From Eledone cirrhosa (lineage: Eukaryota), in assembly GCA_964016885.1 (NCBI GenBank), contig OZ024743.1, positions 18,848,001 to 18,912,000 on the forward strand: a stretch of DNA of 64,000 nt. Reading direction: 5' to 3'. How positions within the stretch are numbered: position 1 is the stretch's first letter; each line of letters begins with the position of its first letter. Position numbers and translations under genes: made by a program. The notes under the pieces are model-generated. The model was not told the DNA's origin, made no database searches, and was given only the letters and a program-made list of their open reading frames with translations. Below, in pieces: positions 6,611 through 62,865 of this stretch.

Positions 6611-8336
6611 CACCGTGTAATATATTATTTGTTCCCCGGTTCTAAGTATTATTTTCTGGTTTGTTATATCCCATTATTAGGAGAAATATACTATTATTTA
6701 ATCAGAAGTTTGGGTTTTTGGTCAGGAGTTTGATATTTCGAAATTTTCATATTTTTCAAGAAAAAACACATTTTTTAAAAATGTATCAGTTCATATAATT
6801 AAATCAACAGAGTATATATTTATTTTATTACACAAGATTATCAAAAGCGACCAAGTAAAAACAAACAACACTAATAAAGCAACTTATACACGTAAGAAAT
6901 GAATGAATTTCCTGGATTTGCGGTTGTAGTCCAGGTCGAATTCCCGCACTAGCCCCCTGATATATTCCCCCATCATGTTTTCATTGTAGTGGCCCCGGTA
7001 CCTCCGCTCTATCTCTTTCCCATATTGGTGGAATCGTTCGTCTTGTTCTTCTGAGTAGGCGCCCATATTGTCCTCGAAGTTTTCCAGGTGAGCGTACAGC
7101 ATATGGAGTTTAAGCGACATCCTGCATCCCATGGCGCCAAAAGCCTTTATCAGATCCTGCACCAGGTGCTGGTAGTTTTCAGCGCTGTAGTTGCCCAGGA
7201 AGCCCTTAACAAATGGCTTGAAACAGTCCCATGCTGTTCTCACAATCCTATTGAGCTTATTGGAGAGCTCGGTAGATTCAAACACCTTCTTTATCTGAGA
7301 TCCAACAAAAATTCCACCTTTGATTTTGGCCCTAGATAACTTGGGGAAGAACTCAAGAAGTTACTTAAAAGCGGCTGATTCTTAGTTGAGAGCCTTCACA
7401 AACTGCTTCATCAACCCCAACTTAATGTGCAGTGGCGGATATGAGCACAATCCTGGGATCAACCAGTGGCTCTCACATGATGTTCCGGGTCCCAACTACA
7501 AATTCTTTTCGCTGCTCCTAGTTCTTTCTTTTGTAGGGGTCAGAGGTGGCTCTGCTATCTCAAAGGCAGGGGAAGCATTGGAAATCCTCCTTGGAGCACA
7601 AGCAGGAAAGCCACCATCTTGAAGTCTCCAATGATTTCCCAATTGTAATGGTTGTATTGCAGAGCTACCAAGAGGACTTTCACACTGTAGTAATATTCCT
7701 TCAGGCAGACTGAATTAGCTAGGGGCAGTGTCGGGAACTTGTTTCTATTGTGGAGGATGACACCCTTCAAACTTGTGATGGAGCTGTCTATAAATATCCG
7801 CCACTCCTTAGGCACAAACGCACCCCAATAACGTCAAACAGTCCAGGCACGTCAAAGCAGAAGCAGAGGCCATCCCTAAGAGTGTAAAAGCCTGAGAAAG
7901 GTTTGTGTCGACTTCTCTGACTTGTCACCTGTACTTCCTCTTTGACCAAGTTCCACTGCTTCATTCTAGAGACGAATGCTCAAAACACAACTTACCCTTT
8001 ATTCAGGGTGCGAAAATCCAATATCAATAAATCTCTTTAATCCACTTTTTAACAATGTTATACTTTATTGCACTTCTATAATTTTCTTTAGGTATTACTC
8101 TTTATTTCATAATTTCAATTTAACCTGAAACATATATTAAAATATTGTTTAACATAAGAAAATTAAACTTACATACGACGTATACATATAATTGTAGTGA
8201 ATAGCTTAGAATTTTTACAAACCCAAACTTTTAACTGTTTAATAGCACTTTTTCTTTATTTATTTGGGACCTAAGCAAGACAAAAAATGATTACAAGCCA
8301 GGAACAGAGAAAACATGTTTTTTTTTATACACGGTG
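6611..8336 (-). mobile_element. Chapaev3-type (CMC superfamily) DNA transposon, internally deleted
   Basis: Termini CACCGTGTA...TACACGGTG with subterminal TGTTCC..GG; 3-bp TAA duplication at 6608-6610 and 8337-8339. Family assignment is from recalled motifs. Confidence 0.8.
6884..7980 (-). pseudogene. Chapaev3-like transposase remnant (frameshifts, N-terminus missing)
   Basis: Motifs WRIFIDSSITSLKGVILH, WEIIGDFKMVAFL, PPLHIKLGLMKQFVKAL, MSLKLHMLYAHLENF and YSEEQDERFHQ are spread over several frames. Confidence 0.8.
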
Positions 8337-22182: not shown

Positions 22183-22627
<445 letters not shown>

Positions 22628-22842
22628 GTTAAAAATGTACATCCACATATGTATACTGAAATACTAGTATGCATATGAATACACACACGTGTACATATGT
22701 AGATGTACCGAGTTTTTCACTGGACACTTTACTGTGAGTGTCCAGCTATTCTGTATGTAAACACACAGACAAACCGGTTTTTAGAGTCATACTGGTTTTC
22801 GAGGAAACACCTTTCCTCTATTCTCCAGAAAGCCAGACAAGG

Positions 22843-22887
22843 AATATTGGACTAGTTTCGATGTTGTTACATCTCATCAGCAATATT
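22843..22887 (-). ncRNA. Intact minimal type-I hammerhead (family C, inverted copy)
   Basis: Exact reverse complement of 23354-23398. Confidence 0.9.
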
Positions 22888-23260
22888 TACCTATCTTCCG
22901 GCCTGTAACAACATCGAAACTAGTCCAATATTCCTTGTCTGGCTTTCTGGAGAATAGAGGAAAGGTGTTTCCTCGAAAACCAGTATGACTCTAAAAACCG
23001 GTTTGTCTGTGTGTTTACATACAGAATAGCTGGACACTCATAGTAAAGTGTCCAGTGAAAAACTCGGTACATCTACATATGTACACGTGTGTGTATTCAT
23101 ATGCATACTAGTATTTCAGTATACATATGTGGATGTACATTTTTAACTTAATTGTTTAAGCGTCAGTCATACAAAAGTGAGTTACAAACGAAACGAAATT
23201 TAATTTCGTTTCGTTATTTGTTTTTATCGTCTCCGCTGAACCGGTACGTACTCACGCTCT

Positions 23261-23268
23261 ATGCAAAT
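23261..23268 (+). promoter_or_regulatory. Octamer ATGCAAAT in a conserved module upstream of the HHR (also 32161-32168 and 40287-40294)
   Basis: TATGCAAATTAG is conserved across diverged families B and C, with ATATA about 40 nt downstream; function is inferred. Confidence 0.5.
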
Positions 23269-23353
23269 TAGTCTGCCCACTACTAATTTTCATAGAAAAA
23301 GCATATAACGATATGTGCTTTTACGATTCTCTAGAAAGGCCGGAAGATAGGTA

Positions 23354-23398
23354 AATATTGCTGATGAGATGTAACAACATCGAAACTAGTCCAATATT
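23354..23398 (+). ncRNA. Intact minimal type-I hammerhead (family C); predicted cleavage after 23391
   Basis: aatattg CTGATGA gatgt-aaca-acatc GAAAC ta GTC caatatt; all core nucleotides and stems are perfect. Confidence 0.92.
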
Positions 23399-24870
23399 CC
23401 TTGTCTGGCTTTCTGGAGAATAGAGGAAAGGTGTTTCCTCGAAAACCAGTATGACTCTAAAAACCGGTTTGTCTGTGTGTTTACATACAGAATAGCTGGT
23501 ATAAGTATGTATACATATATGTATACACGCGTACAGTAGTATGTATATATATACATACATGCGCACATATATATATGTGTACAAGGAGAAAAGACGAGAG
23601 AGAAAAACAGGGGAAAGCCTACAAATATGAGAGAAATAAATACAGAACTAGCAAAATTTCAGAGGCAAATCAACTATAGGAAACGAACAAAACATCTCAT
23701 TTCCTTTTCAGTTACCCCATCGAAAATGCGATTTCTTCAATACAGATGGCATTGTATTGTTATTTTGAGGACGCGTAAAGTACAACCACATAACATATGC
23801 ATACCATAACTGAGAGAAACAAACAAACGAAAAATTACAATTGGAAATACAAATGATGACAAAATATCATTTATATAAAATGGTTGGCGTTAAAGTTGTA
23901 TCCTCCTAAATCCGATTTCGAAGGCAATAATTGAGTATACGTACAATAAAATTAATTGAGAAAATTAATTGAGAAGACCAGATGTAGATATTCATAATTC
24001 ATTTTATTCATAATCTGCCGTAATAGATATTTTAGTATCGTTAAAAATTACATAATGCTGTTATGAACCGATATCAGACAGGTTTCCTCAGACATTAGGA
24101 ATTCCTTTCTGTTGTCCCTGCGTGCAACACCTGATCTGAGTTTTATTTATAATTTTCAATTATTAATCATGTTATCGTCATCGTGGTATATATACCAGTA
24201 ACTTAAACCTCCCTTAGGCCCAGCACGGCATTTGATACACGCTAATATATTTACTGCTAATATAAATTATGAAGTGCTCTAGTGTATATTAAGTTTGTTT
24301 CCTCTATATGTACTATAAAACTTATGTATAAATGTATCCATCGATACATACATACACATATACACACATACATTCATACACAGATACATACATATCCATA
24401 CATACACACACATATGTGTGTGAGTTTATATATGTATATAGGTACATATGTGTATATAATCAATGCAAATGGTACACAGTTCTCAATATTATTTTAGAAA
24501 CGGGACTATATAATGTAACAGATATTAAACATAACCTAAATAAGTGTTTCTCTCTGGTACAATCTTGGAAGATTCGCTATAGATTCGACGTTCCATTGAT
24601 TTTGTTAGTCTAAAAATATAAATGTGTTTATGTATAAATGTGTAATTGGTTCTTAAATGATTGGTTGTCAAACTGACTCTAATACTTTGAAATACTTGAA
24701 GCAATATTTGTTTTTATGTCATCTTTATTATATTTATGTTCTTGATCTCTTTACTCGTTGTATTTAGTAATATATAACGGTATATACATATATGTATGTC
24801 ACATACATATGTATACATACACATATACATACACACACTCATACGTATATATATATATATATATATATAT

Positions 24871-29783: not shown

Positions 29784-30410
29784 TTAAGGGTTCGATCTGT
29801 AGTGCGAAAACTTCTCTTTGAGTCTATGGTTACAATAAATTAATCTCGCGATTTTATTGTTGAGTAACCTATTCTTCGAACTTAAGATGTGGAACAGCTC
29901 AAGGTCGCATAATCGACAGCTTCTCATACCACTCCGATATGGGGGCGCGTTTGATAATTTGTTTCCACTTCAGGGTGTATTGATGGTTACTTTCCCTCTG
30001 TTGCCAGGTCTTGTTTGCAAGGGTAGTTACATAACGATTCTGGGAATGTTTCATTGCGTAACGGTGTGTATACCAACGAGCTTTAAATGTATTCCCAGTC
30101 GCTCCGATGTAATACCATTTCTGGTTGTCTGATTCCACTGTGCATTGGTAAACCAGATTAGACTGCATACATTCATTTTGTAATGGACAGGTTTCAGGTA
30201 GGTGGCAGTTACATTTCTTGTTATGGGCAACTTTGGAATTATTTGTGGGCTGCGATGCCTGAACAAGTGTGTTACGTTTTGTTTGCCTATTAGCGGGTGG
30301 TTGTGTATTAAATATTCTGTTGTGTTCGGTGGTTATTGTTGTAAATGTGTTATTGTTGTAAACTTGTGTTTTGGTGTTGTTATGTATCTTTTTAGCGTTC
30401 AGTATCTTAA
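29784..30410 (-). pseudogene. Penelope-like element linker plus GIY-YIG endonuclease (inverted 3' part, frameshifted)
   Basis: CNCHLPETCPLQNECMQSNLVYQC..YYIGATGNTFKARW..H, then CRLCDLE..NN..CNHR. Confidence 0.9.
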
Positions 30411-31942
30411 CGGACAAAACATCAAATGTGTATACGATGGATGTTAATACATACAATAGCTTCATACGGAGGGAATTACATAGGAAATACAAAAAAAATA
30501 ATGAGGCGGCACTGATAAACATCAACAACGAGGCACACAATATAGTCAAACACCTAGGAATAGACGACAGAACGGAGCCACTTAAGCCATGTACCCCCAC
30601 AATTAACCTCAAAGACCACAAGGTAAATTTTGATTATAACCCCACTATTAGACTTATATGTCCATCCAAATCGGACATCGGGAAAATTAGTAAACATATA
30701 TTAGACAGAGTGATAGCACAAATGAAGAATAAACTAGTGATTAAACTATGGGGTAACGCTACCGAAACAATTAAGTGGTTTAACAATATAGCTATAAAGA
30801 ATTATCTAAATTTATACAATTTGACATTAACGATTATTACTCATCTATATCCCCCAACACCTTGGATAAAGCCTTAGCATTCGCCAAAGCCAATTCTGAC
30901 ATAACAGACGACGAGATAAAAATCATATTAGCTGCTAGGAAAACAATAATTAAATTTGAAAATGCCTATTGGGAACGTAAGGATAGATTACATAACTTAG
31001 ACATCACGATGGGGGCTAACGACTCGGCTCAATCACAGACTTAGTAGGTATTTACAGAGCCCATAGTTTACAAAGCGAGTTTAGCGACCTTCACGGTGGA
31101 ATCTAAAGAGACGACGCCCTTCCCCTAGTTAAGAACCTAAATAACCAGAGCATAGAAAGACTCCATAAGAATATTAGAAAGACTCTCAGGAAACTAGGCC
31201 TTAGCATAACGTATGAGTATAGCACTAAAACAGTTAACTTTCTAGATGTGACGCTTAACCTAAATACGGGACTTTGAAGACCTTTTCACAAGATTAATGA
31301 AAACTTAGCATACATCAACTGTAACTCAAACCACCCACTATCAATAATTAAATCCATTCCACGCAGCATATTCCTTAGGATCTCCCGCCTCTCATCTAAC
31401 CGACAAATCTTCGAAGAACATGCAGAATACTACAATACCGCATTAGACAAGGCAGGCCACTTATATAGAGTATAATATATAGATGAAAGCCTCCGTGAAG
31501 CGCACACGAACACGCATAACACAAACTCCAGAAACACACGCATACACACATTTACGCATAGAACTGCAAAGTATACAGCAAATTGAAATACAACATCGAA
31601 ATCAAACGAGTCACGCAGTAGAAAATATATTTGGTATAACCCCATATTTAACACCTCTATTAGTACTAACCTACCCTCTACTTTCTTTAGAATAATAAAT
31701 AGGCACTTTCCAGATTCACATAGATACAGCAAAATCCTTAACACTAAATCTATTAGACTATCCTACTCCACGGCACCAAATATAGAGGCACACATTAAGA
31801 GGCTTAACGCTAAAAAGATACATAACAACACCAAAACACAAATTTACAACAATAACCACCGAACACAACAGAAGGCAAAAAAAACGTAACACACTTGTTC
31901 AGGCATCGCAGCCCACAAATAATGCCAAAGTTGCCCATCACA
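30411..31942 (+). pseudogene. Penelope-like reverse transcriptase, 5'-truncated, with stops and frameshifts
   Basis: RLICPSKSDIGKISK, FIQFDINDYY, DITMGANDSA, GGI*RDD, VNFLDVTL and WYNP; clear homologue of the 58281-60040 ORF. Confidence 0.9.
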
Positions 31943-32494
31943 TTTTTGTTCAACACTGACACAGCATATGTATATGTGTGCATGTATATATATATATATA
32001 TATATACTACTGTATGTCTGTATACATATATGTATGTACGTATACATACATACATACCTTCATTTAAGTAAGAGCCGTACTAAGAGTGAGAAAAGAAATT
32101 TCGTTTCATTCTATTCCATTTATCGTTTTCGGTGTGCCCGGCCGACTGAACTCACTCGATATGCAAATTAGGCGGATCAGCCGTTAATATGCATAACGAA
32201 AGTATATACTTTTTGACGTTCAACCATCTGGCAGGAAGGTATACGATGCTGACGATAGCTAATAAGCTTGAAACTAGTACATCGTTCCTGTGTCAGTGTT
32301 AAACAAAAAGGTGACGTTGCCTAAACACTGTACGGCGTAATTTGGGCTGTTTGTTTGTTTACAAACAAACAAACCGAACATTATAATAAATGTCCGGTAA
32401 ACCGATACGTGCATATATATATATATGTGTGCATGTATGTATATATATTTTCATACTTCTGTACGTCTGTATACATATATGTATGTACGTATAC

Positions 32495-32495
<1 letters not shown>
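31943..32495 (+). mobile_element. Retrozyme-like element, family B (~425-bp unit) with short inverted 5' piece
   Basis: Near-identical to 39990-40630; upstream fragment at 442-492; carries the octamer and an HHR. Confidence 0.8.
32243..32285 (+). ncRNA. Minimal type-I hammerhead (family B); predicted cleavage after 32279
   Basis: acgatg CTGACGA tagc-taataa-gctt GAAAC ta GTA catcgt; stem I can extend via gga/tcc and ctggca/tgtcag. Confidence 0.85.
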
Positions 32496-37112: not shown

Positions 37113-37161
37113 CTGACAGACGTATGTATGTAACACAATATTTTTATTTTTTTTATTTTTA

Positions 37162-37469
37162 TTTTTTTAAATATATATATTTATTTGGTTCCTTTACCGG
37201 TTTCGCAGTTCTGCTTTTCAAAGTTGAGATGGAGGGTCTGTGGTTTTTCTCATAGATGTGAGAAAAACCACAGACCCTCCATCTCAACTTTGAAAAGCAG
37301 AAGAACTACGAAACCGGTAAAGGAACCAAATAAATATATACATTTAAAAAAAAAAATAATATATAAACAAATAAGACTCCAGTTGCATTTTCGATTTCAT
37401 CTCTATTTCTTTATACTTTCACTCGTGTAGGACACCTCGGTTATTTTTCAATTTGTAAAAAAAACTCAC

Positions 37470-37475
<6 letters not shown>
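37162..37475. mobile_element. Fold-back insert (palindrome 37162-37352) with two U3-A8 HHR motifs (37191-37226 minus, 37286-37324 plus)
   Basis: TTGAAAA gcag-aagaa-ct(g/a)c GAAAC cg GTA aagg; stem I is weak. Confidence 0.7.
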
Positions 37476-37528
<53 letters not shown>

Positions 37529-37763: not shown

Positions 37764-39065
37764 CAGGGTGTTCGGGATAAATTTGACAGTTTCATCAGGA
37801 AAAAGAAAAAGTGCTTGGTATCTACAAAATTTATTTGATTTAAAAGAAATTCAATGGACAAGGAAATTACACTATTGTCAAAGAGTTTTACACAAAATAA
37901 CCGCCATTAATATCTATTACAGCCTCAATCCGGGCCCAGAACCTTGAGCAAGCTGATTTTACACTTTCCCTGGGAAGGCCCTCAAAAACTACTTTAATTC
38001 TGTCGATTAACTGGGCTTTTGTAGTACCTGCACGGCGATTGGTGTCTTTCTCTACAGCGCCCCATACATAATAGTCCATCGGCTTAAGATCAGGGGAGTT
38101 CGGAAGCCAAACATTGGGACTGGTGTAGTCGTAAAAATTGGCTGACAACCATTTTTGAGTTTTCCCCGAGGTGTGGCAGGGGACCGAATCCTGCTGCCAT
38201 ACATACGGCCTATTATTGGCTACCCTTGTTATCCAGGGCTTAACTACAGTGGTTAGCAATTCCACGAAGGCATCTGAATTCAACCTGAGACCCTGTTTGA
38301 AAAATTCCGGCGGCATCACATCATCCTCGGAGGACACATCCAAAAAACATGACAGTTTGGGAAAATTTAGTCTGCATGACTCGAGGAGTGTCCTTTCGAC
38401 TGTATGCAAGTCATGTGTTATTCTGCGTGTTGTGTTTTTGATTTTGGCAAAAGTTTTTCTCATCGGAAAAGAACCAGATTGTTTGTGCTTCAGCAGGATA
38501 TTTCACTTTGCTCAGAAGTTTCTTCGCCTTTGCAGACGATTTTCGCGGGCCTTTTCTGTGAGAAGTTGACCTCTGCGACGCTTGTATGAGTAGTAGCGAA
38601 GGTTTTCATTGAGTGCAATTTTCATAGTAGAGGCTGAAACATTCAATTCACGCGACAAAGACCGAATTCCGATGCCAGGGTCCTCCAACACTTTTTTCTG
38701 CAGATTTTCGATGAATTCTGCTGTGCGAGAGCAATCAGATATTCTGTTATGTTTCTTTCTTCTAGCCACAGCCTCGTAGTCTCCATTGCAATTCTCCAGT
38801 TCATGCCGGATTGTTTTTACAGTGTTCAGGGAGCATTGAGCAGCGACCATAATCTCCTTATTTTGATGGGCGGCGCGAATCACCATGATACAAGTTATTC
38901 TCTTCCATGATTCAGGGGGCTCCCAGTCATTCATTCTCGTTGTCATCACATATATGAACGAAGGAGGGTTTAAACTTTCAAATAAAGCCTAGTGGGCATG
39001 AATGAATTTAAAACATCTGAAAAACAACCAAATATTATTCTGTCAAATTTATCCCGAACACCCTG
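37764..39065 (-). mobile_element. Full-length Tc1/mariner, DD37D (maT) family
   Basis: 26-bp TIR CAGGGTGTTCGGGATAAATTTGACAG at both ends; TA on the right, TG on the left; inserted in (TA)n. Confidence 0.93.
37888..38949 (-). pseudogene. DD37D transposase, frameshifted
   Basis: HTH-like N-terminus; WFFSDEKNF in a shifted frame near 38460; WQQDSVPCH..WLPNSPDLKPMDYYVW with 37 residues between the second and third Asp. Confidence 0.9.
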
Positions 39066-39909: not shown

Positions 39910-40635
39910 TGTCTGTATACATATATGTATACAGACGTACAGTAGTATGTATATATATATATACATTCATACACACATATATACATGCTGTGTCAGTGTT
40001 GAACAAAAAGATGACGTGTAACTCGAGTTGTTTGTTTACAAACAAACAAACCAAGCATTATAATAAATGTTCGGTAAACCGATACGTGCATATATATATA
40101 TATGTGTGTGAATGTATGTATATATATACATACTACTGTACGTCTGTATAGATATATATATGTACGTATACATACATGCATACTAACATTTAAGTAAGTG
40201 CCGTACTAAGAGTGAGAAATGAAATTTCGTTTCATTCTATTCCATTTATCGTTTTCGGTGTGCCCGGCCGACCGAACTCACTCGATATGCAAATTAGGCT
40301 GCTCAGCCGTTATATGCATAAGGAAAATATATACTTTTAGACGTTCAACCATCTGGCAGGAAGGTATACGATGCTGACAATAGCTAATAAGCTTGAAACT
40401 AGTACATCGTTCCTATGTCAGTGTTGAACAAAAAGGTGACGTTGCCTAAACACTGTACGGCGTAATTCGGGCTGTTTGTTTGTTTACAAACAAACAAACC
40501 GAGCATTATAATAAATGTTCGGTAAACCGATACGTGGATATATATATATATATGTGCATGTATGTATATATATATACATACTATTGTACGTATGGATACA
40601 TAAATGTATGTACGTATACGTACATGCATACTTAA
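39910..40635 (+). mobile_element. Retrozyme-like element, family B: about 1.5 tandem units (period 425) with inverted 5' piece; HHR at 40368-40410 has G8A
   Basis: TGTCAGTGTTGAACAAAAAG at 39991 and 40416; acgatg CTGACAA tagc-taataa-gctt GAAAC ta GTA catcgt. Confidence 0.85.
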
Positions 40636-40776
40636 ATATATATATAAGTTTATCCCAATCTCCACCCTCTCCTAGCACCATAAATGATATAAACACCATA
40701 TTACTTGGACAGTCGCCTTCATGATGATTATTTCTCCCAAATGAATCAGCTCTAGTCCTGTAGAAGCCTTTTCTAT

Positions 40777-40812
<36 letters not shown>

Positions 40813-43111
40813 CATGTTTGTGTGGCGTGTGTGGGTGTGTGTGTATGCGTGTGGGTGCGTGCGTGTCTGTGTTTGTGTGTGTGTGTATCTAAATCCAAGG
40901 CAATATTCATTTGGTATTGGTTTATTAACATCCGTAATGTACATTTCGCTGAGGACTATCGGTTATGACAGCCTGAGCTTCTTAAACGGTTAACAACAGT
41001 GAAATATTATTTTTAAAAAACCCTTATTCATACAGGAGTTGATACAGTGGGGTGCCGGACGTATGATGTTATTTCCTCTACGGTCAGCCCCTGTATATGT
41101 GATGTCCTGGTTTACACTTTTAATAGGTCGTTGAGCGCTTTGCTTCATCTACTTCATAACCAACAGACCATTAAATGTTCCGCACGTCCTTGTTCGGTCA
41201 ACCCCTCACTATATATCTATATATATAAAGTGAAGTTGGGCGTTGTTTGTTTGGTATTCCGAACTTGCAGGCTACACCGTTCATCCGATTTTCATGAAAC
41301 ATCACACATATATAAAGTTTGACCAGAAGCCAAAAATCGATATTTTCAAATATCGTCCGATTTCGATGAGACTCGACGCAAGTGTGTATTGCGATCCGGG
41401 TATGAACGTGAGCTACATTAAATATTCGTAGAATCGATAATTGGATCATTACAGGCAAAATTCGATATTTACGAAATTTGTCCTATTCCAATGAAATTTG
41501 ACGTAGGTATGTATTTTGATGCAGGGATCAAATTTTCAAAAAATCGATAATCGGACACCTAGAGGCAAAAATCGATATTTTCAGAATTCGTTCGATTTCA
41601 TTGAAATTTGATATTACCATAATAATAGATCCATTAGGAGTTACTCCAATGCTGCAAAATTTCAGAAAGTTTTTTTAAACTCATAAATCATGCGTTAAAT
41701 GAGACCTTTAAGAGTTACGGCAGACAATTATTCATAGTTTAATTATCAATGGCGCAATATTGTAGAAATATGCAAATCTACGCCTTTTGTTTATGGGAAA
41801 AGGGAAAGCTTTACAAACAGATATTCAGGGTTCTTTAAGTAGAATTCTTAATTCTTAAATAATTGTACAATTAAATTAAATATATGACAGAATGTTTTTC
41901 ATATTTTCTTCACTTTTAGTTTACACCTGGCGCAATCAAAATCAATTTCATATGCCCATATAAGCACGCACACACTGTGACTCACGCGCGTTATTGATTG
42001 GACGGTCTGTCTATACCACGAGCAGTATGTTTTCTCAACGATAGATACACAAACAGGTATGCACACACGTGCGAACCGCCTTATTTTCTCTTTGTGCGTA
42101 TCCGCTTTTTGTGAACAACAATAAATCCGGCCGACTCACTAAACGGACCTTTACAGAATTTGCTCACTTATCGGTGAGTTAGTGTTTATTCATTTAGACT
42201 ACGTGCATGCCATTTCAGTTAAATTTAATTCATTTTTCGCCTTTCTTAAATTTAAAAGTCCCCATTCGGACTTGGGGATTGTCGACATCTTTGCGTTAAA
42301 CTTTTCATATCCCCCCTTATTCAAGTGCAAATACAGTATTATCCCTATCTGAAAGGAAACCAAATTTAATGGTGTCTTTTGTGATGCCAAAAGCAAAAAG
42401 CGGTGAGTACATTTTCGAACAGTCTTAAATAATCATGCTTTTTGAAAAAGATTTACTAAATAATACTTTGACCAACTTGTATTGGACACATACAAAGTTG
42501 TAAAAAACGGTACGTCCGTACCATTTTTTTCCGTTTTTAAACAAAAGGTTCTAAAAAATTACTTAATTCATGACACTACTGTCACAGCCTTTTGCACAGG
42601 AAGTGAGTAAGTTTTCGGGTTTTTAAACGTAGGTTCACCAGGGTTTGTGTCTTTTCCATTATTAGCCCACCTCTATTAGCATTTTTTTGTTTGTTTATGA
42701 CTAAATGTTATGAGCGTATTTGCAAATTGTTATTGTTCTTTAATTTTTTAATTAGTTGTCATAGACCATCTGCATGCAGTGCAATTGATTGCGCACACGT
42801 ACACACCAGCATGCAGATAAACACTGACAGATAATAAAATATCGATAATTTTCTTATTAAGACATCGGTCAAAAAGAGAGATTGAATGTACTTTAGAACA
42901 TTTTTTGATTTTATTGTTCTTTTTGGCATGATATGTCAAGAATATAGCTACTATTCACTTTGGTTATGTTTTGTAACTAAGAAACGGTTCCTTTTGGGTG
43001 GATACTTAACAAGAAAGATCCCAGGGTTTTGTACAAGTTTGTTTCAGGCACTGTATAGACGCCAATTTTGTCACACCTTGGTCATGAATTCGTATTCTTT
43101 TCCAATAGATA

Positions 43112-44638: not shown

Positions 44639-44928
44639 ATTTATTAATGCATGGACAGTTATATGACCTCCTTTTCAGCCGAGAGACATACCGATACATA
44701 TTCAAACATTGATACATATTCAAACATTGTGGGTCAACCTTCATTACAGAGTTTAGAGTGGCAGTACACACTTCGAGATTACATTTATATTAAGAGGTAC
44801 AATTAAAAATCAAAAATACTATTAAAATGTGTCACAATATAGACCCTAATTTCTATGGTGATGCGCATCCTCCAAGAGAATTTTTAAAGCATAAAGTGTA
44901 TTAACTATAGAGTAGTTTAATTAAGTTA

Positions 44929-45672
44929 GGACACAAGTACCACAAACTTTTAATCAAAAACACCATTAAAATCTCATACTCTACGACGCCTAACTTAGCA
45001 TACCACATAGCTAGCAGCAATAATAGTAAAATTAGTTCTTACTTCCAACAAACAAAATCACAACGGGATGCAAACCCTCTAAATACCACTGTAGCAAGCA
45101 ACCATAGCAACGGCAGTAACAATAGAAATAACACTAGTATAAGTAATAACACCAGGGTTGTCAACCCGAACGCCCAAAATCCTATAGCTACCACACAGAC
45201 TTCCGCACTGCATTATAACCAGCGGACTAACGCACAGGATAATTGTAACTGTAGAGCTAATAGAACCTGTCCTTTAGATAAAAAATGCCTAACCAAGGAT
45301 ATCATATACTCATGCACCGTCACGACTAACAACTCTTCAGAAACCTATGTAGGCTCCACTTCTAACTGCTTCAAAATCAGATATAATTCGCACATCCACT
45401 CTTTCAAAAAGCACAGCCTAGCAAACTCCACCTCACTTTCTAGCTACATACACTATCTAAAAACTAAAAATAAACCATACACACTCAAATGGGAAGTGAT
45501 AGGCAGCGCAACCTCGTACAAACCACCTAATAAATTTTGTAACCTCTGTATACTAGAGACACACAATATTATCTTCTCCAACCGTAACCTACTTGAAAAA
45601 AAAACTGAGGTGTTTGCAACTTGCCAGCACCGCTTCAGACATTCCTTCCAAAACTTTAAGCCCAATATATAG
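44929..45672 (+). pseudogene. Penelope-like linker plus GIY-YIG endonuclease, 5'-truncated open frame without ATG (absent from the ORF track)
   Basis: GHKYHKLLIKNTIKISYSTTPNL..CNCRANRTCPLDKKCLTKDIIYSC..TYVGSTSNCFKIRYNSH..CNLCILE..CQHR..KPNI*. Confidence 0.9.
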
Positions 45673-58280: not shown

Positions 58281-60152
<1,872 letters not shown>

Positions 60153-61074
60153 ATGCGTGTGTAGACAACAATTTGATGTTTAAGATAACTGTGGTTGCAA
60201 TAAGAATATCTAATATATTTTCTAACGGTATTTGAAAACACGGGGATGAAACAATAAGAAACAGAAAACGTGGAAGCGTCAAGCACAATAATTCACGGTC
60301 ATCGGCTGTCTTCTGGAGATCATTATAAGTTTGAGTATTCACCACCAGTGTATCAATAGAGTCCACGGAATTATTTATAGATAGCTATTCGGGATGAGAA
60401 CATAACAGACGATAGACAAAAGATCTAAAAAGAAAAATGAAAGCAAAAAAAATAGCTACATACCAATACGAGATGGTGGAATGAAAGGTTCATAGGCTGA
60501 CTATGAAGAAGTGATTGTAGAAGTGTGAAATGTCGCATGCATTAATTTGAACTCTTCCTATTAATAAATGCATTGTTTCTATCAGGGAATATGTTGAGAA
60601 ATAAACCTCAATTGTACAAGTCTTGAGAGTATCTTCGTCAGTCAATGAACTTTTCAGCCGGCACTCTTATACACACACACATACACACACACACATACAC
60701 ACACACACACACACAATCACACACACACATACATACACAATATCACACACATATATATATTTACATACATTTATATATGTATGTGTATATAAATATATAT
60801 ATACACAGTTCAAGAGTAACCAATCTTAAAGAGAGAGATGGAGATAGGAGAGGAGATAGGAGAGGAGAGATTGGTGAATCAGTTAGAAGCCAAAGCGTAA
60901 AGGCATGTGCTCAATGTGCAATATGCAGTGGAAGGCTGCTCGGTGGCTGGGTTCATGCAGAGGTTAGGTGCACAGAGCTGGAACTATTCATTAGTTGAGC
61001 AAAACAAGACCACACATTTCACAAGGAAGACATTATTAAAAGATTGTCAACATATTTTAGTTTGATGTAAGGAA

Positions 61075-61962: not shown

Positions 61963-62865
61963 CTATGTTGGGTGAAATATTCTGTTGGCGAAGGAATTAG
62001 CCTTTCGATGTTGACAGCTAATATTTACCTCCGTTCTATCGTTAATCGGTAGAGGTCCTGATAGAGTTATGTAATATGCTTCGGTAAGACAGAATTCACA
62101 AGCTGTTCTTCGTCCATTGAACGGTTGTGCACTAGACAAGATATCCCATGTTAATGAGTGTTCAATGTTGCTTAATTTAAGGTTTTTAATTATCCTAGCT
62201 AGAGATGTCGAACATCTGTTGTTAGGGTTTCGGAAGGAAAAGGGGTGCGCGTTATAGCGTACCTTAAAAGGGTTAGAGGTAAACCCGATATATGAGCTGG
62301 TCTGGGAAGCAGTTTTAACCATGCACCTATAGACTATGTTGGGTGTCAGGCAATGTCCATTTAGTGGACATGCGTTCGGGTAACGGCAGTTGCAGTTACT
62401 CCTGCGGTTAGTGAGAGTAGGGTTGTTTAACCTAAGCGGTTGGTCAGTGCTAGAAGGATAAGATGGGGGGAGGTGTGCTACTAACGTAAGTATTGATGTA
62501 GTGGGTTGTGTATTTGTTGGGAGTGGTGGTACCGCGGTGTGGGAGTTATACTGTCTTAGTTTATGATTGTTACTGAATGCGATGTGGCTAGTCAGGTTTG
62601 GTGTTGTGGAGAATGAGCTTTCAATGTTAATGTTATTAAAGAGTTTGTAATACCTATGGTTGGGGGTGGGTGGGGGTAGATAGGATAGAGAAGAAGCGTT
62701 TAGGGATATTAGTGGTAAGATTAGATGAGAATGAGGGGTTAAGCCAGGTGTTATTTCTGGGCCTATTCCTTCTAGGGGTTTTAGTGGAGTTGGTAGGGGC
62801 CTTCATAGGGTTATTATTACCTGTGGATTTGTTATTTGTCATCCCATTTCTCATTCCTATTCTGA
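61963..62865 (-). pseudogene. Penelope-like linker plus GIY-YIG, 5'-truncated, frameshifted
   Basis: WLNPSFSSNLTTNI, FSTTPNL, CNCRYPNACPLNGHCL..IVY..YIGFTSNPFKVRY..CEFCLTE..CQHR. Confidence 0.9.

What the first reader, a model, noticed from the sequence alone, without database searches (positions are those of the whole stretch)
22622..23499. Retrozyme families B and C share an octamer/TATA-like module and a covarying ribozyme
Seen: the 466-bp unit here and the 425-bp unit (31966-32495, 39990-40635) align through AGTGAG, TTTCGTTTC, TTTATCGT, ACTCAC, TATGCAAATTAG and ATATA before the HHR, while stem I (aatattg/caatatt versus acgatg/catcgt) and stem II differ in sequence yet still pair. Established: ATGCAAAT is the POU/Oct element of snRNA-type promoters, and newt satellite 2, an HHR repeat, uses an snRNA-type promoter. 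Inference: self-transcribing, self-cleaving units, possibly forming ~425 and ~466 nt circles, in an invertebrate.
Basis: partly seen in the sequence, partly recalled or inferred. Interest (0 to 1): 0.75.

Follow-up and report, generated by a model that had tools for sequence, protein, structure and literature searches.

The report
Self-cutting repeats with borrowed snRNA promoter
These are copies of two abundant, protein-less repeats whose units carry a hammerhead ribozyme motif just behind a 12-base box that also sits in front of the host's own U6-type RNA genes, so they likely switch themselves on, are predicted to cut their own RNA, and are likely pasted into (TA)n repeats by Penelope-type jumping genes.

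Summary
B (466-bp unit) and C (420-540 bp) are non-LTR retrozymes with tens of thousands of copies. The shared motifs are two modules, not one promoter.

(1) AGTGAG/ACTCAC, TTTCGTTTC and TTTATCGT form a predicted RNA junction (one compensatory change). It sits at the insertions' two fixed ends, the Penelope 'tail' signature.

(2) TATGCAAATTAG plus TATA. The box lies at -76 to -78 in 5 of 5 distinct best-scoring host U6/U6atac/MRP promoters and in 0 of 15 U1/U2/U5 promoters.

The repeats' box-to-TATA distance is 42-45 bp against 46-48 in the host. They also carry the U1/U2/U5-type YCA core 26-29 bp before TATA, and B and C units hold T-tracts. I lean to a hybrid promoter read by Pol II, but that test was significant only for sister families, not for B or C. 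Within C the octamer is not clearly more conserved than its flanks.

No RNA run was listed, so transcription, cutting and circles are untested. None of the three window copies has two complete hammerheads on one strand. The scan had already noted this promoter-retrozyme layout elsewhere in this genome; newt satellite 2 is the precedent (read second-hand).

The parts
22551..22622 (.). (TA)n target tract at the left end of the B insertion
   Evidence: 3' ends of B and C arms lie in (TA)n or AT-rich DNA at nearly all loci
22622..22903 (-). B minus arm: 5'-truncated, one complete hammerhead (core starts at 22880, cut after 22850), no promoter block, ends at fixed site 1 (unit position 228)
   Evidence: 99.6% identical to the plus arm over 250 nt
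22904..23499 (+). B plus arm: truncated hammerhead (22904-22925), one 466-nt unit (22926-23391), 108 nt of the next unit; its end is non-canonical
   Evidence: 1 of 33 arm ends at this position
23153..23227 (+). Penelope-type 'tail' interval between the two fixed 3' end sites (unit positions 227-234 and 299-303); site 2 is TTTAT|CGT
   Evidence: 32 of 33 distinct B arm ends fall at these two sites
23176..23255 (+). Predicted RNA multi-way junction: outer stem GTGAG(T)/(A)CTCAC, hairpin 23187-23215, single-stranded TTTAT start site, small CCG/CGG hairpin
   Evidence: fold z -4.99 for 23170-23300; homologous C stem A-U in 25, G-C in 14, G-U in 1 of 40 copies
23260..23271 (+). TATGCAAATTAG box (octamer-containing), matching the proximal box of host U6, U6atac and MRP genes
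23277..23279 (+). YCA triplet at box+16, in the register of the host U1/U2/U5 core relative to TATA (weak for B itself)
   Evidence: 10 of 10 family representatives, 0 of 5 Pol III promoters; matrix test not significant for B (p 0.33) or C (p 0.17)
23301..23309 (+). TATA-like element (TATA at 23304); predicted start about 23333-23335 (inferred)
   Evidence: it also lies in a predicted hairpin
23354..23398 (+). Type I hammerhead: stem I 7 bp (extendable over about 23326-23423), core CTGATGA, stem II 5 bp, helix III A-CTAG-T (one pair plus palindromic tetraloop), predicted cut after 23391
   Evidence: (z -5.45)
23500..23577 (-). Fragment of a C-type element ending at its site-1 end, abutting the B plus arm
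31966..32495 (+). Family C copy 1: about 1.2 units, one hammerhead (core 32249, CTGACGA), box 32160, TATA 32203
39988..40640 (+). Family C copy 2: about 1.5 units, one hammerhead with a G8A core change (40374), box 40286; short inverted remnant to its left

Best explanation
B and C are two related families of abundant, protein-less repeats whose unit carries a hammerhead ribozyme motif behind a box shared with the host's U6-type genes; the box with its TATA likely works as an internal snRNA-type promoter, and the RNA is likely copied into (TA)n DNA by a Penelope-type reverse transcriptase. Step 1 (inferred, ~0.7): in tandem arrays the box/TATA block starts transcription about 30 nt after TATA, 15-28 nt before the ribozyme core. 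I favour Pol II over Pol III about 60:40, because only read-through across the unit's T-tracts yields RNA that contains the promoter itself. Step 2 (predicted from the fold): two hammerheads pair through the palindromic ACUAGU helix III and cut out unit-length RNA, which a host ligase would circularise (~0.6). Step 3 (end positions shown, mechanism inferred, ~0.9): a Penelope-like RT-endonuclease nicks AT-rich DNA and starts reverse transcription inside the RNA at two fixed sites 55-70 nt apart, next to the AGTGAG/ACTCAC junction, one site per DNA end. This gives head-to-head arms of tandem units with scattered 5' truncation. The 'module' is therefore two devices: an RNA start signal and a DNA promoter.
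For: Host match: the box (at most 1 mismatch) lies at -76 to -78 with TATA at -30 in U6 (three distinct upstreams), U6atac and MRP; chance is about 6e-4 per promoter. It is absent from 15 of 15 distinct U1/U2/U5 upstreams. It is the only 12-mer shared by B and C upstream of the core. The first TATA falls at box+42 to +45 in 10 of 10 family representatives although TATA was not in the search pattern. YCA sits at +16 in 10 of 10 representatives and in 24 of 30 box-anchored segments, versus 0 of 5 Pol III promoters. Host Pol II promoters have YCART at -55 to -58 (15 of 15) with TATA 26-27 nt later (13 of 15). A Pol II matrix picks +16 with p<=0.004 in sister families F, G and H. A 4-bp Pol II/III offset is used for insect snRNA promoters (57 versus 61 bp, PMC1761439). 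The box strand stays fixed while its predicted pairing partner is rebuilt in B, C, D and E (read from the sequences), which fits a sequence-specific constraint. Ends: 32 of 33 B ends lie at two sites. 8 of 8 complete two-armed B insertions (read) and 24 of 27 C locus rows (some overlap) have one end of each kind. The Penelope 'tail' equals the stretch between two internal RT start sites in vitro (PMC11167929). An outer-stem A-U to G-C change is present in 14 of 40 C copies. Whole-unit circular folds give z -11.1 (B) and -5.5 (C) against 30 shuffles.
Against: There is no transcript evidence of any kind. Within C (40 insertions chosen by the hammerhead, not by the box) the box scores 0.952 against a median of 0.923, rank 31 of 152, and the octamer is intact in 34 of 40. 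A successful C subfamily changes the box A that is invariant in the host promoters (14 of 40) and often deletes 8 nt after TATA (10 of 40). Box and TATA both lie in predicted hairpins in B and C, so RNA structure could hold them. The Pol II matrix test fails for B (p 0.33), C (0.17), C' (0.13), C'' (0.69), D, D2 and E, and the YCA motif was defined after looking. No host promoter with the same hybrid layout was found, and the host distal element TTACCTCCCTT is missing from the sense strand of both units. The compensatory change is one event in one subfamily. No autonomous partner was identified: none of 42 GIY-YIG loci has the unit as its own pLTR, and the end resemblance to one RT/GIY-YIG family is not significant (shuffle p 0.08 for C, 0.22 for B). 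B shows no A>G editing bias (22 versus 21). In vitro, a Penelope RT mostly used uncut RNA (PMC11167929), so circles are not required.
Confidence: 0.62

Rival explanations
1. The block is a U6-type Pol III promoter. It makes a short RNA from just before the hammerhead to the first T-tract (about 275 nt in B, 330 nt in C), and occasional read-through supplies the unit-length or multimeric template.
For: The box is found only in host Pol III type-3 promoters. There is no T>=4 run between the predicted start and unit position 214 (B) or 279 (C), and the first runs lie beside the insertion end sites. Schistosome hammerhead repeats are reported as Pol III-transcribed (PMC6765202, passages).
Against: Box-to-TATA is 42-45 against 46-48 in the host, and the host CCT at +15/16 (4 of 5) is replaced by YCA. 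B needs read-through of four T4-5 tracts per unit. Sister families D, E and F have T5 or longer within about 105-160 nt of the predicted start in the copies checked, one E arm only at 277. The T-run gap is short enough to arise by chance (my estimate p ~0.15).
Confidence: 0.22
2. The box is not a working promoter. It is an inherited relic or an RNA-level protein-binding hairpin, and the units are transcribed only by read-through from host genes or Penelope promoters.
For: The box is not clearly more conserved than its flanks within C. Box and TATA lie in predicted hairpins. One subfamily alters the box and deletes 8 nt after TATA. With tens of thousands of copies, passive transcription could suffice.
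Against: It does not explain the position-specific match to five host promoters, nor box-to-TATA and box-to-ribozyme distances kept across families whose spacers have diverged.
Confidence: 0.12
3. The arrays are ordinary satellites amplified at DNA level (unequal crossover, fold-back repair), with a fossil ribozyme and no RNA intermediate.
For: Some older arrays share variants between non-adjacent units (L198); no editing scar was found.
Against: Dispersed, 100%-identical copies on different chromosomes, two fixed 3' ends in (TA)n with one of each per insertion, scattered 5' truncation, and covarying ribozyme stems.
Confidence: 0.04

Closest known systems
Metazoan non-LTR retrozymes (Cervera and de la Pena 2020, PMC7229834, passages and Discussion read; Li, Clavereau and Pollet 2026, bioRxiv 10.64898/2026.07.22.740005, parts 1-3 of 5 read)
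   Same: Tandem, low-GC, non-coding units with a type I hammerhead; thousands of copies; co-occurrence with Penelope-like elements; strongly folded predicted circle.
   Different: In the parts I read neither paper describes an internal promoter ('octamer' has 0 occurrences in PMC7229834) or maps RT start sites. Units here are at the long end (420-540 nt) and come as two-armed insertions. Cleavage and circles are shown there, not here.
Newt satellite 2 (Coats, Zhang and Epstein 1994; Cremisi 1992; neither held, seen only as cited in PMC2220036 and PMC6765202)
   Same: Hammerhead repeat with an internal snRNA-type promoter read by Pol II. The one-pair helix III with a palindromic tetraloop matches the amphibian type described in PMC7229834.
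   Different: Here the box is proximal (about -73) and matches host Pol III type-3 promoters, with Pol II-like spacing. It is in an invertebrate and is kept across several diverged families. I could not read the newt promoter's layout.
Penelope-like element pLTRs (Craig et al. 2021, PMC8557442, passages; Frangieh et al. 2024, PMC11167929, parts 1-2 of 4; Cervera and de la Pena 2014, PMC4209133, passages)
   Same: Partial tandems, inverted 5'-truncated copy, a 'tail' at one end only, AT-rich or microsatellite targets, hammerhead with palindromic helix III predicted to cut as a dimer.
   Different: No ORF; the tail is 55-70 nt rather than 30-40; no autonomous element with this pLTR was found.
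Host U6/U6atac/MRP (Pol III type 3) and U1/U2/U5 (Pol II) promoters of this genome
   Same: Box as in the Pol III genes; YCA core and core-to-TATA distance as in the Pol II genes.
   Different: No host gene examined combines both. The repeats lack the shared distal TTACCTCCCTT element and the Pol II AATTAAAT at about -90.

Membership tests
Non-LTR retrozyme | Type I hammerhead in each tandem unit, at least two consecutive units | tested here: met
   Met by the families (arrays at 466-bp spacing; C periods); not by the three window copies, which have one complete hammerhead per strand
Non-LTR retrozyme | No protein-coding capacity, no LTR/PBS/PPT | tested here: met
   No ORF of 120 aa or more overlaps the three copies other than a simple-repeat frame at 40484-40888; PBS/PPT were not searched for specifically
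Non-LTR retrozyme | Self-cleavage of the transcript | not testable with these tools
   Core and covarying stems are present; C2 has G8A
Non-LTR retrozyme | Unit-length linear and circular RNA in vivo | not testable with these tools
   No RNA run was available to examine
Penelope-mobilised non-autonomous element | Two fixed 3' ends with a tail at one end, inverted 5'-truncated arm, AT-rich target | tested here: met
   32 of 33 B ends; 8 of 8 two-armed B insertions; 24 of 27 C locus rows
Penelope-mobilised non-autonomous element | Homology to the pLTR of an autonomous RT/GIY-YIG element in the same genome | tested here: inconclusive
   Not found in 42 loci out of 10,595 GIY-YIG candidates; end resemblance to the L167 family p 0.08 and 0.22
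Host U6-type (Pol III type 3) promoter | Proximal box TATG(C/G)(A/T)AAT(T/G)AG | tested here: met
Host U6-type (Pol III type 3) promoter | Box-to-TATA distance 46-48 bp | tested here: not met
   42-45 in 10 of 10 representatives
Host U6-type (Pol III type 3) promoter | Distal TTACCTCCCTT-like element at about -260 | tested here: not met
   No sense-strand match within 3 mismatches in B or C
Host U1/U2/U5-type (Pol II snRNA) promoter | YCART core 26-27 bp before TATA | tested here: inconclusive
   YCA in register in 10 of 10; matrix test significant for F, G, H only, not for B or C
Host U1/U2/U5-type (Pol II snRNA) promoter | AATTAAAT about 33 bp before the core | tested here: not met
   Not seen in the aligned upstream sequences (by eye)
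Any snRNA-type promoter | Drives transcription from a defined start, SNAPc-dependent | not testable with these tools
   Needs 5' end mapping and reporter assays

The most novel reading that the evidence does not exclude
A whole clan of invertebrate retrozymes has built a chimeric snRNA promoter not found in the host genes examined: the POU-type box of Pol III U6 genes moved 4 bp to Pol II spacing over a U1/U2-type core. Pol II would then read through tandem units and the RNA circle would carry its own promoter, while an adjacent RNA junction hands the circle to a Penelope RT at two fixed start sites. That would be a self-transcribing, viroid-like retroelement with separable promoter, ribozyme and RT-recruiting modules in under 500 nt.
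Probability: 0.3. Interest if true: 0.75.

Novelty: new variant of a known kind. Interest (0 to 1): 0.52.

Why it matters
Animal retrozymes are reported to be highly expressed in many tissues, but the retrozyme papers read here do not say what drives them, and their mobilisation by Penelope elements is proposed rather than shown. These families give base-level predictions for both: a start site about 72-74 nt after the box, and two RT start sites 55-70 nt apart. The host comparison also describes this animal's snRNA promoter code (Pol III box versus Pol II core, 4-bp offset), which would be useful for building guide-RNA expression in a lineage for which my one search listed no U6 promoter paper.

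Tried and rejected
Rfam at gathering score: no hit.

RNA evidence: no RNA holder was listed. The four runs laid are contigs of unknown kind. Two runs from other organism labels give one low-depth contig that goes back 466 nt, which fits tandem DNA as well as a circle, so I did not use it. The kind of those runs stayed undetermined.

ADAR scars in B copies: A>G 22 versus T>C 21 distinct variants, singletons 14 versus 9, in 25 insertions; no signal.

Vertebrate-style distal octamer at U1/U2: not present.

Autonomous partner: none among 42 GIY-YIG loci; the end similarity to the L167 family is not significant.

All six motifs as one promoter: rejected, because four of them map to a paired stem, a hairpin and the insertion end.

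Rows left out of the '5 of 5' count: 7 further U6-like hits (L160-L166) and 4 U6atac-like hits (L180-L183) lack the box in place. I judged them pseudogenes from their repeat or microsatellite flanks and lower scores. In 3 of 8 fetched cluster U6 copies an insertion separates the box from the gene. 19 of 59 C insertions lacked the whole module and were left out of the conservation test. L227-L229 lacked the layout but stayed in the 24-of-30 count.

One search grouped loci wrongly and was redone.

Papers not held: PMC308520, PMC48510, PMC108972. No supplements were read; the Repbase-matching tables of the 2026 preprint and the figures of PMC7229834 could bear on whether such promoters were noted.

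Full report
1. Observation. The window holds one B insertion (22622-23499) and two C copies (31966-32495, 39988-40640). TATGCAAATTAG is the only 12-mer that B and C share in the ~220 nt before the ribozyme core. Each copy has a type I hammerhead with helix III A-CTAG-T. Stem I is AATATTG/CAATATT in B and ACGATG/CATCGT in C; stem II is GATGT/ACATC and AGCT/AGCT. Fold z-scores are -5.45 (B), -1.54 (C1) and -3.95 (C2). Rfam has no hit at gathering score. C2 carries G8A in the core, seen in 1 of 96 sampled cores. The B period is 466. The C period is 425 only in one window copy with a deletion; close relatives give 441-447 and the family spans 420-538.

2. Abundance. In the 3.0-Gb genome the pattern box-N70..100-CTGANGA matches 25,371 times and the C hammerhead pattern 28,096 times; both reversed controls are 0. 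The top 40 of 797 B candidates are 100% identical over 271 nt on two chromosomes, so B is very young. The best other C hits are 95-96% identical to the window copy (3,168 candidates). A pattern excluding the main B/C forms gave 384 matches and exposed sister families that I label D-H. That the animal is a cephalopod is my inference from recall and from the wording of earlier scan notes; no call named it.

3. Insertion anatomy. The B locus is a head-to-head pair of arms joined at 22903/22904, the left arm ending in (TA)n. Numbering the unit from the predicted cut, 32 of 33 distinct B arm ends fall at 227-234 (14) or 299-303 (18); the exception is the window's right arm at 108. All 8 complete two-armed B insertions have one end of each kind, and so do 24 of 27 C locus rows with both ends classified (some rows overlap). 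In C the sites are ~196-217 and 270. In both families site 2 is TTTAT|CGT, one of the 'shared motifs'. Inner junctions are scattered over the unit, and only one of 23 read is at about the cut site, so the template was a circle or an uncut multimer rather than a cut linear monomer (inference). Partial tandems, an inverted truncated copy and a one-sided tail are the Penelope signature (PMC8557442, passages). In vitro a Penelope protein cuts AT-rich DNA on both strands and starts reverse transcription at two internal RNA sites that bound the tail; uncut RNA was the main substrate (PMC11167929, parts 1-2 of 4).

4. The upstream motifs are RNA structure. AGTGAG pairs with ACTCAC around two hairpins in both B and C circular folds (whole-unit z -11.1 and -5.5 against 30 shuffles). 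In 40 C insertions chosen by the hammerhead alone, the sixth pair of that stem is A-U in 25, G-C in 14 and G-U in 1; this is one event in one subfamily. The junction spans the tail and leaves TTTAT unpaired, so I read it as the RT-recruiting signal (inferred). An autonomous RT/GIY-YIG family (L167; Pfam RVT_1 and GIY-YIG; a CxxxxCxxC motif before the nuclease as described for Neptune/Nematis, no tree built) has its own 68-nt tail. One of its ends reads TTTCGATTTCAT-9 nt-TTTAT, but the resemblance is not significant (p 0.08 for C, 0.22 for B). None of 42 GIY-YIG loci carries the unit as pLTR. The partner is unidentified.

5. The box is a host promoter element. The best-scoring U6 genes (two singletons and one cluster), U6atac and RNase MRP all have TATG(C/G)(A/T)AAT(T/G)AG at -76 to -78 and TATA at -30: 5 of 5 distinct promoters, chance about 6e-4 each. 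Eleven lower-scoring U6/U6atac hits lack it and were set aside as probable pseudogenes. None of 15 distinct U1, U2 and U5 upstreams has it. They have AATTAAAT-like sequence near -90, YCART at -55 to -58 (15 of 15; U5 served as an out-of-sample check) and TATA 26-27 nt after that core (13 of 15). Most U1, U2 and U6 genes examined also show a distal TTACCTCCCTT-like element near -260, which B and C lack on the sense strand. That ATGCAAAT is a POU site is recalled.

6. Which polymerase. In 10 of 10 family representatives the first TATA is at box+42 to +45, against +46 to +48 in the host Pol III genes. YCA lies at +16, 26-29 nt before TATA, against 0 of 5 Pol III promoters, four of which have CCT at +15/16. 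[quoted passage not shown] A matrix built from the 15 Pol II promoters finds +16 with p<=0.004 in F, G and H, but is not significant in B, C, C', C'', D, D2, E or any Pol III promoter. The motif was defined after inspection. B has T5, T5, T4 and T4 tracts per unit and C two T4 tracts, which Pol III would have to read through for the promoter to be inherited through RNA. On the other side, no T>=4 lies between the predicted start and the end sites in B or C. I put Pol II at about 60:40 over Pol III.

7. Results against the promoter. Within C the box is well kept (0.952; no shared variant in the eight octamer columns; intact in 34 of 40) but ranks 31 of 152 twelve-mers. One subfamily changes TTAG to TTGG (14 of 40) and 10 of 40 delete 8 nt after TATA. 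Box and TATA both sit in predicted hairpins. There are no transcript data. None of the three window copies has two complete hammerheads on one strand, so they are products rather than sources of monomer RNA.

8. Known relatives. Non-LTR retrozymes are tandem type I hammerhead repeats shown to give circular RNA in coral, mussel and axolotl, with Penelope elements proposed as movers (PMC7229834, passages and Discussion). A 2026 preprint ties vertebrate retrozymes to pLTRs (parts 1-3 of 5). One- or two-pair palindromic helix III hammerheads work as dimers (PMC4209133, passages). Newt satellite 2 is cited as having a Pol II snRNA promoter and schistosome repeats a Pol III promoter (PMC2220036, PMC6765202, passages); the original papers were not held. 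Seven literature searches listed no paper whose title or abstract start describes these families or this promoter; subscription papers and supplements were not seen. Earlier notes of this scan report the same promoter-retrozyme layout and two-armed ends on other DNA of this genome. I had found the U6 match in the same turn as the first look-up, and I treat those notes as leads only.

9. Verdict. A real, abundant non-LTR retrozyme clan with Penelope-type ends. The shared module splits into an RNA start signal and a likely internal snRNA-type promoter that mixes host Pol III and Pol II features. It is a new variant of a known kind, with a vertebrate precedent, and function is untested. Interest 0.52.

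Noticed in passing
window 37153-37482: Two-armed pLTR fragment of an autonomous RT/GIY-YIG Penelope-like family (L167, L168, L172, L175, L176). It has a minimal hammerhead variant whose core has U3-A8 in place of C3-G8, a CCGG helix III, and a 68-nt tail.
   Followed up: partly
window 23500-23577 (-): C-type site-1 end directly against the B right arm; B may have inserted into the (TA)n of an older C end and lost its canonical right end.
   Followed up: partly
window ~452-495: Tail-only C fragment between (TA)n tracts, ending at TTTAT.
   Followed up: no
window 29899-30877 (-), 44911-45672 (+), 58281-60179 (-), 61963-62802 (-): Four ORF relics that look like Penelope-type RT/GIY-YIG proteins by eye but have no Pfam hit; the 58281 one has a degenerate hammerhead-like motif downstream.
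   Followed up: partly
window 6884-7360 (-), 37888-38988 (-): ORFs that look like DNA-transposase relics (recalled resemblance, not tested).
   Followed up: no
L097, L098, L100 (U6 cluster on C19): In 3 of 8 fetched cluster copies a ~200-bp repeat has inserted at the TATA box, moving the box to about -280.
   Followed up: no
L091, L092, L131-L135, L145, L147: U6, U1 and U2 genes share a distal TTACCTCCCTT-like element at about -250 to -270; U1, U2 and U5 have a TATA-like element at -30.
   Followed up: partly
L218, L219, L232, L233: Sister families G and D carry extra degenerate copies of the box in tandem upstream of the main one.
   Followed up: no
window 22771-22791: Contigs of run X6 (kind unknown) show five clustered A>G differences on the strand antisense to the unit, four of them absent from the deep run X1. 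This could be editing of fold-back RNA, or a variant.
   Followed up: no
L141:1-613: A B-family copy lies about 0.9 kb upstream of a U1 gene at the edge of a U1 cluster.
   Followed up: no
L170, L171, L178: A second autonomous RT/GIY-YIG family, two-armed in L178, with two ends about 55-60 nt apart in (TA)n.
   Followed up: no
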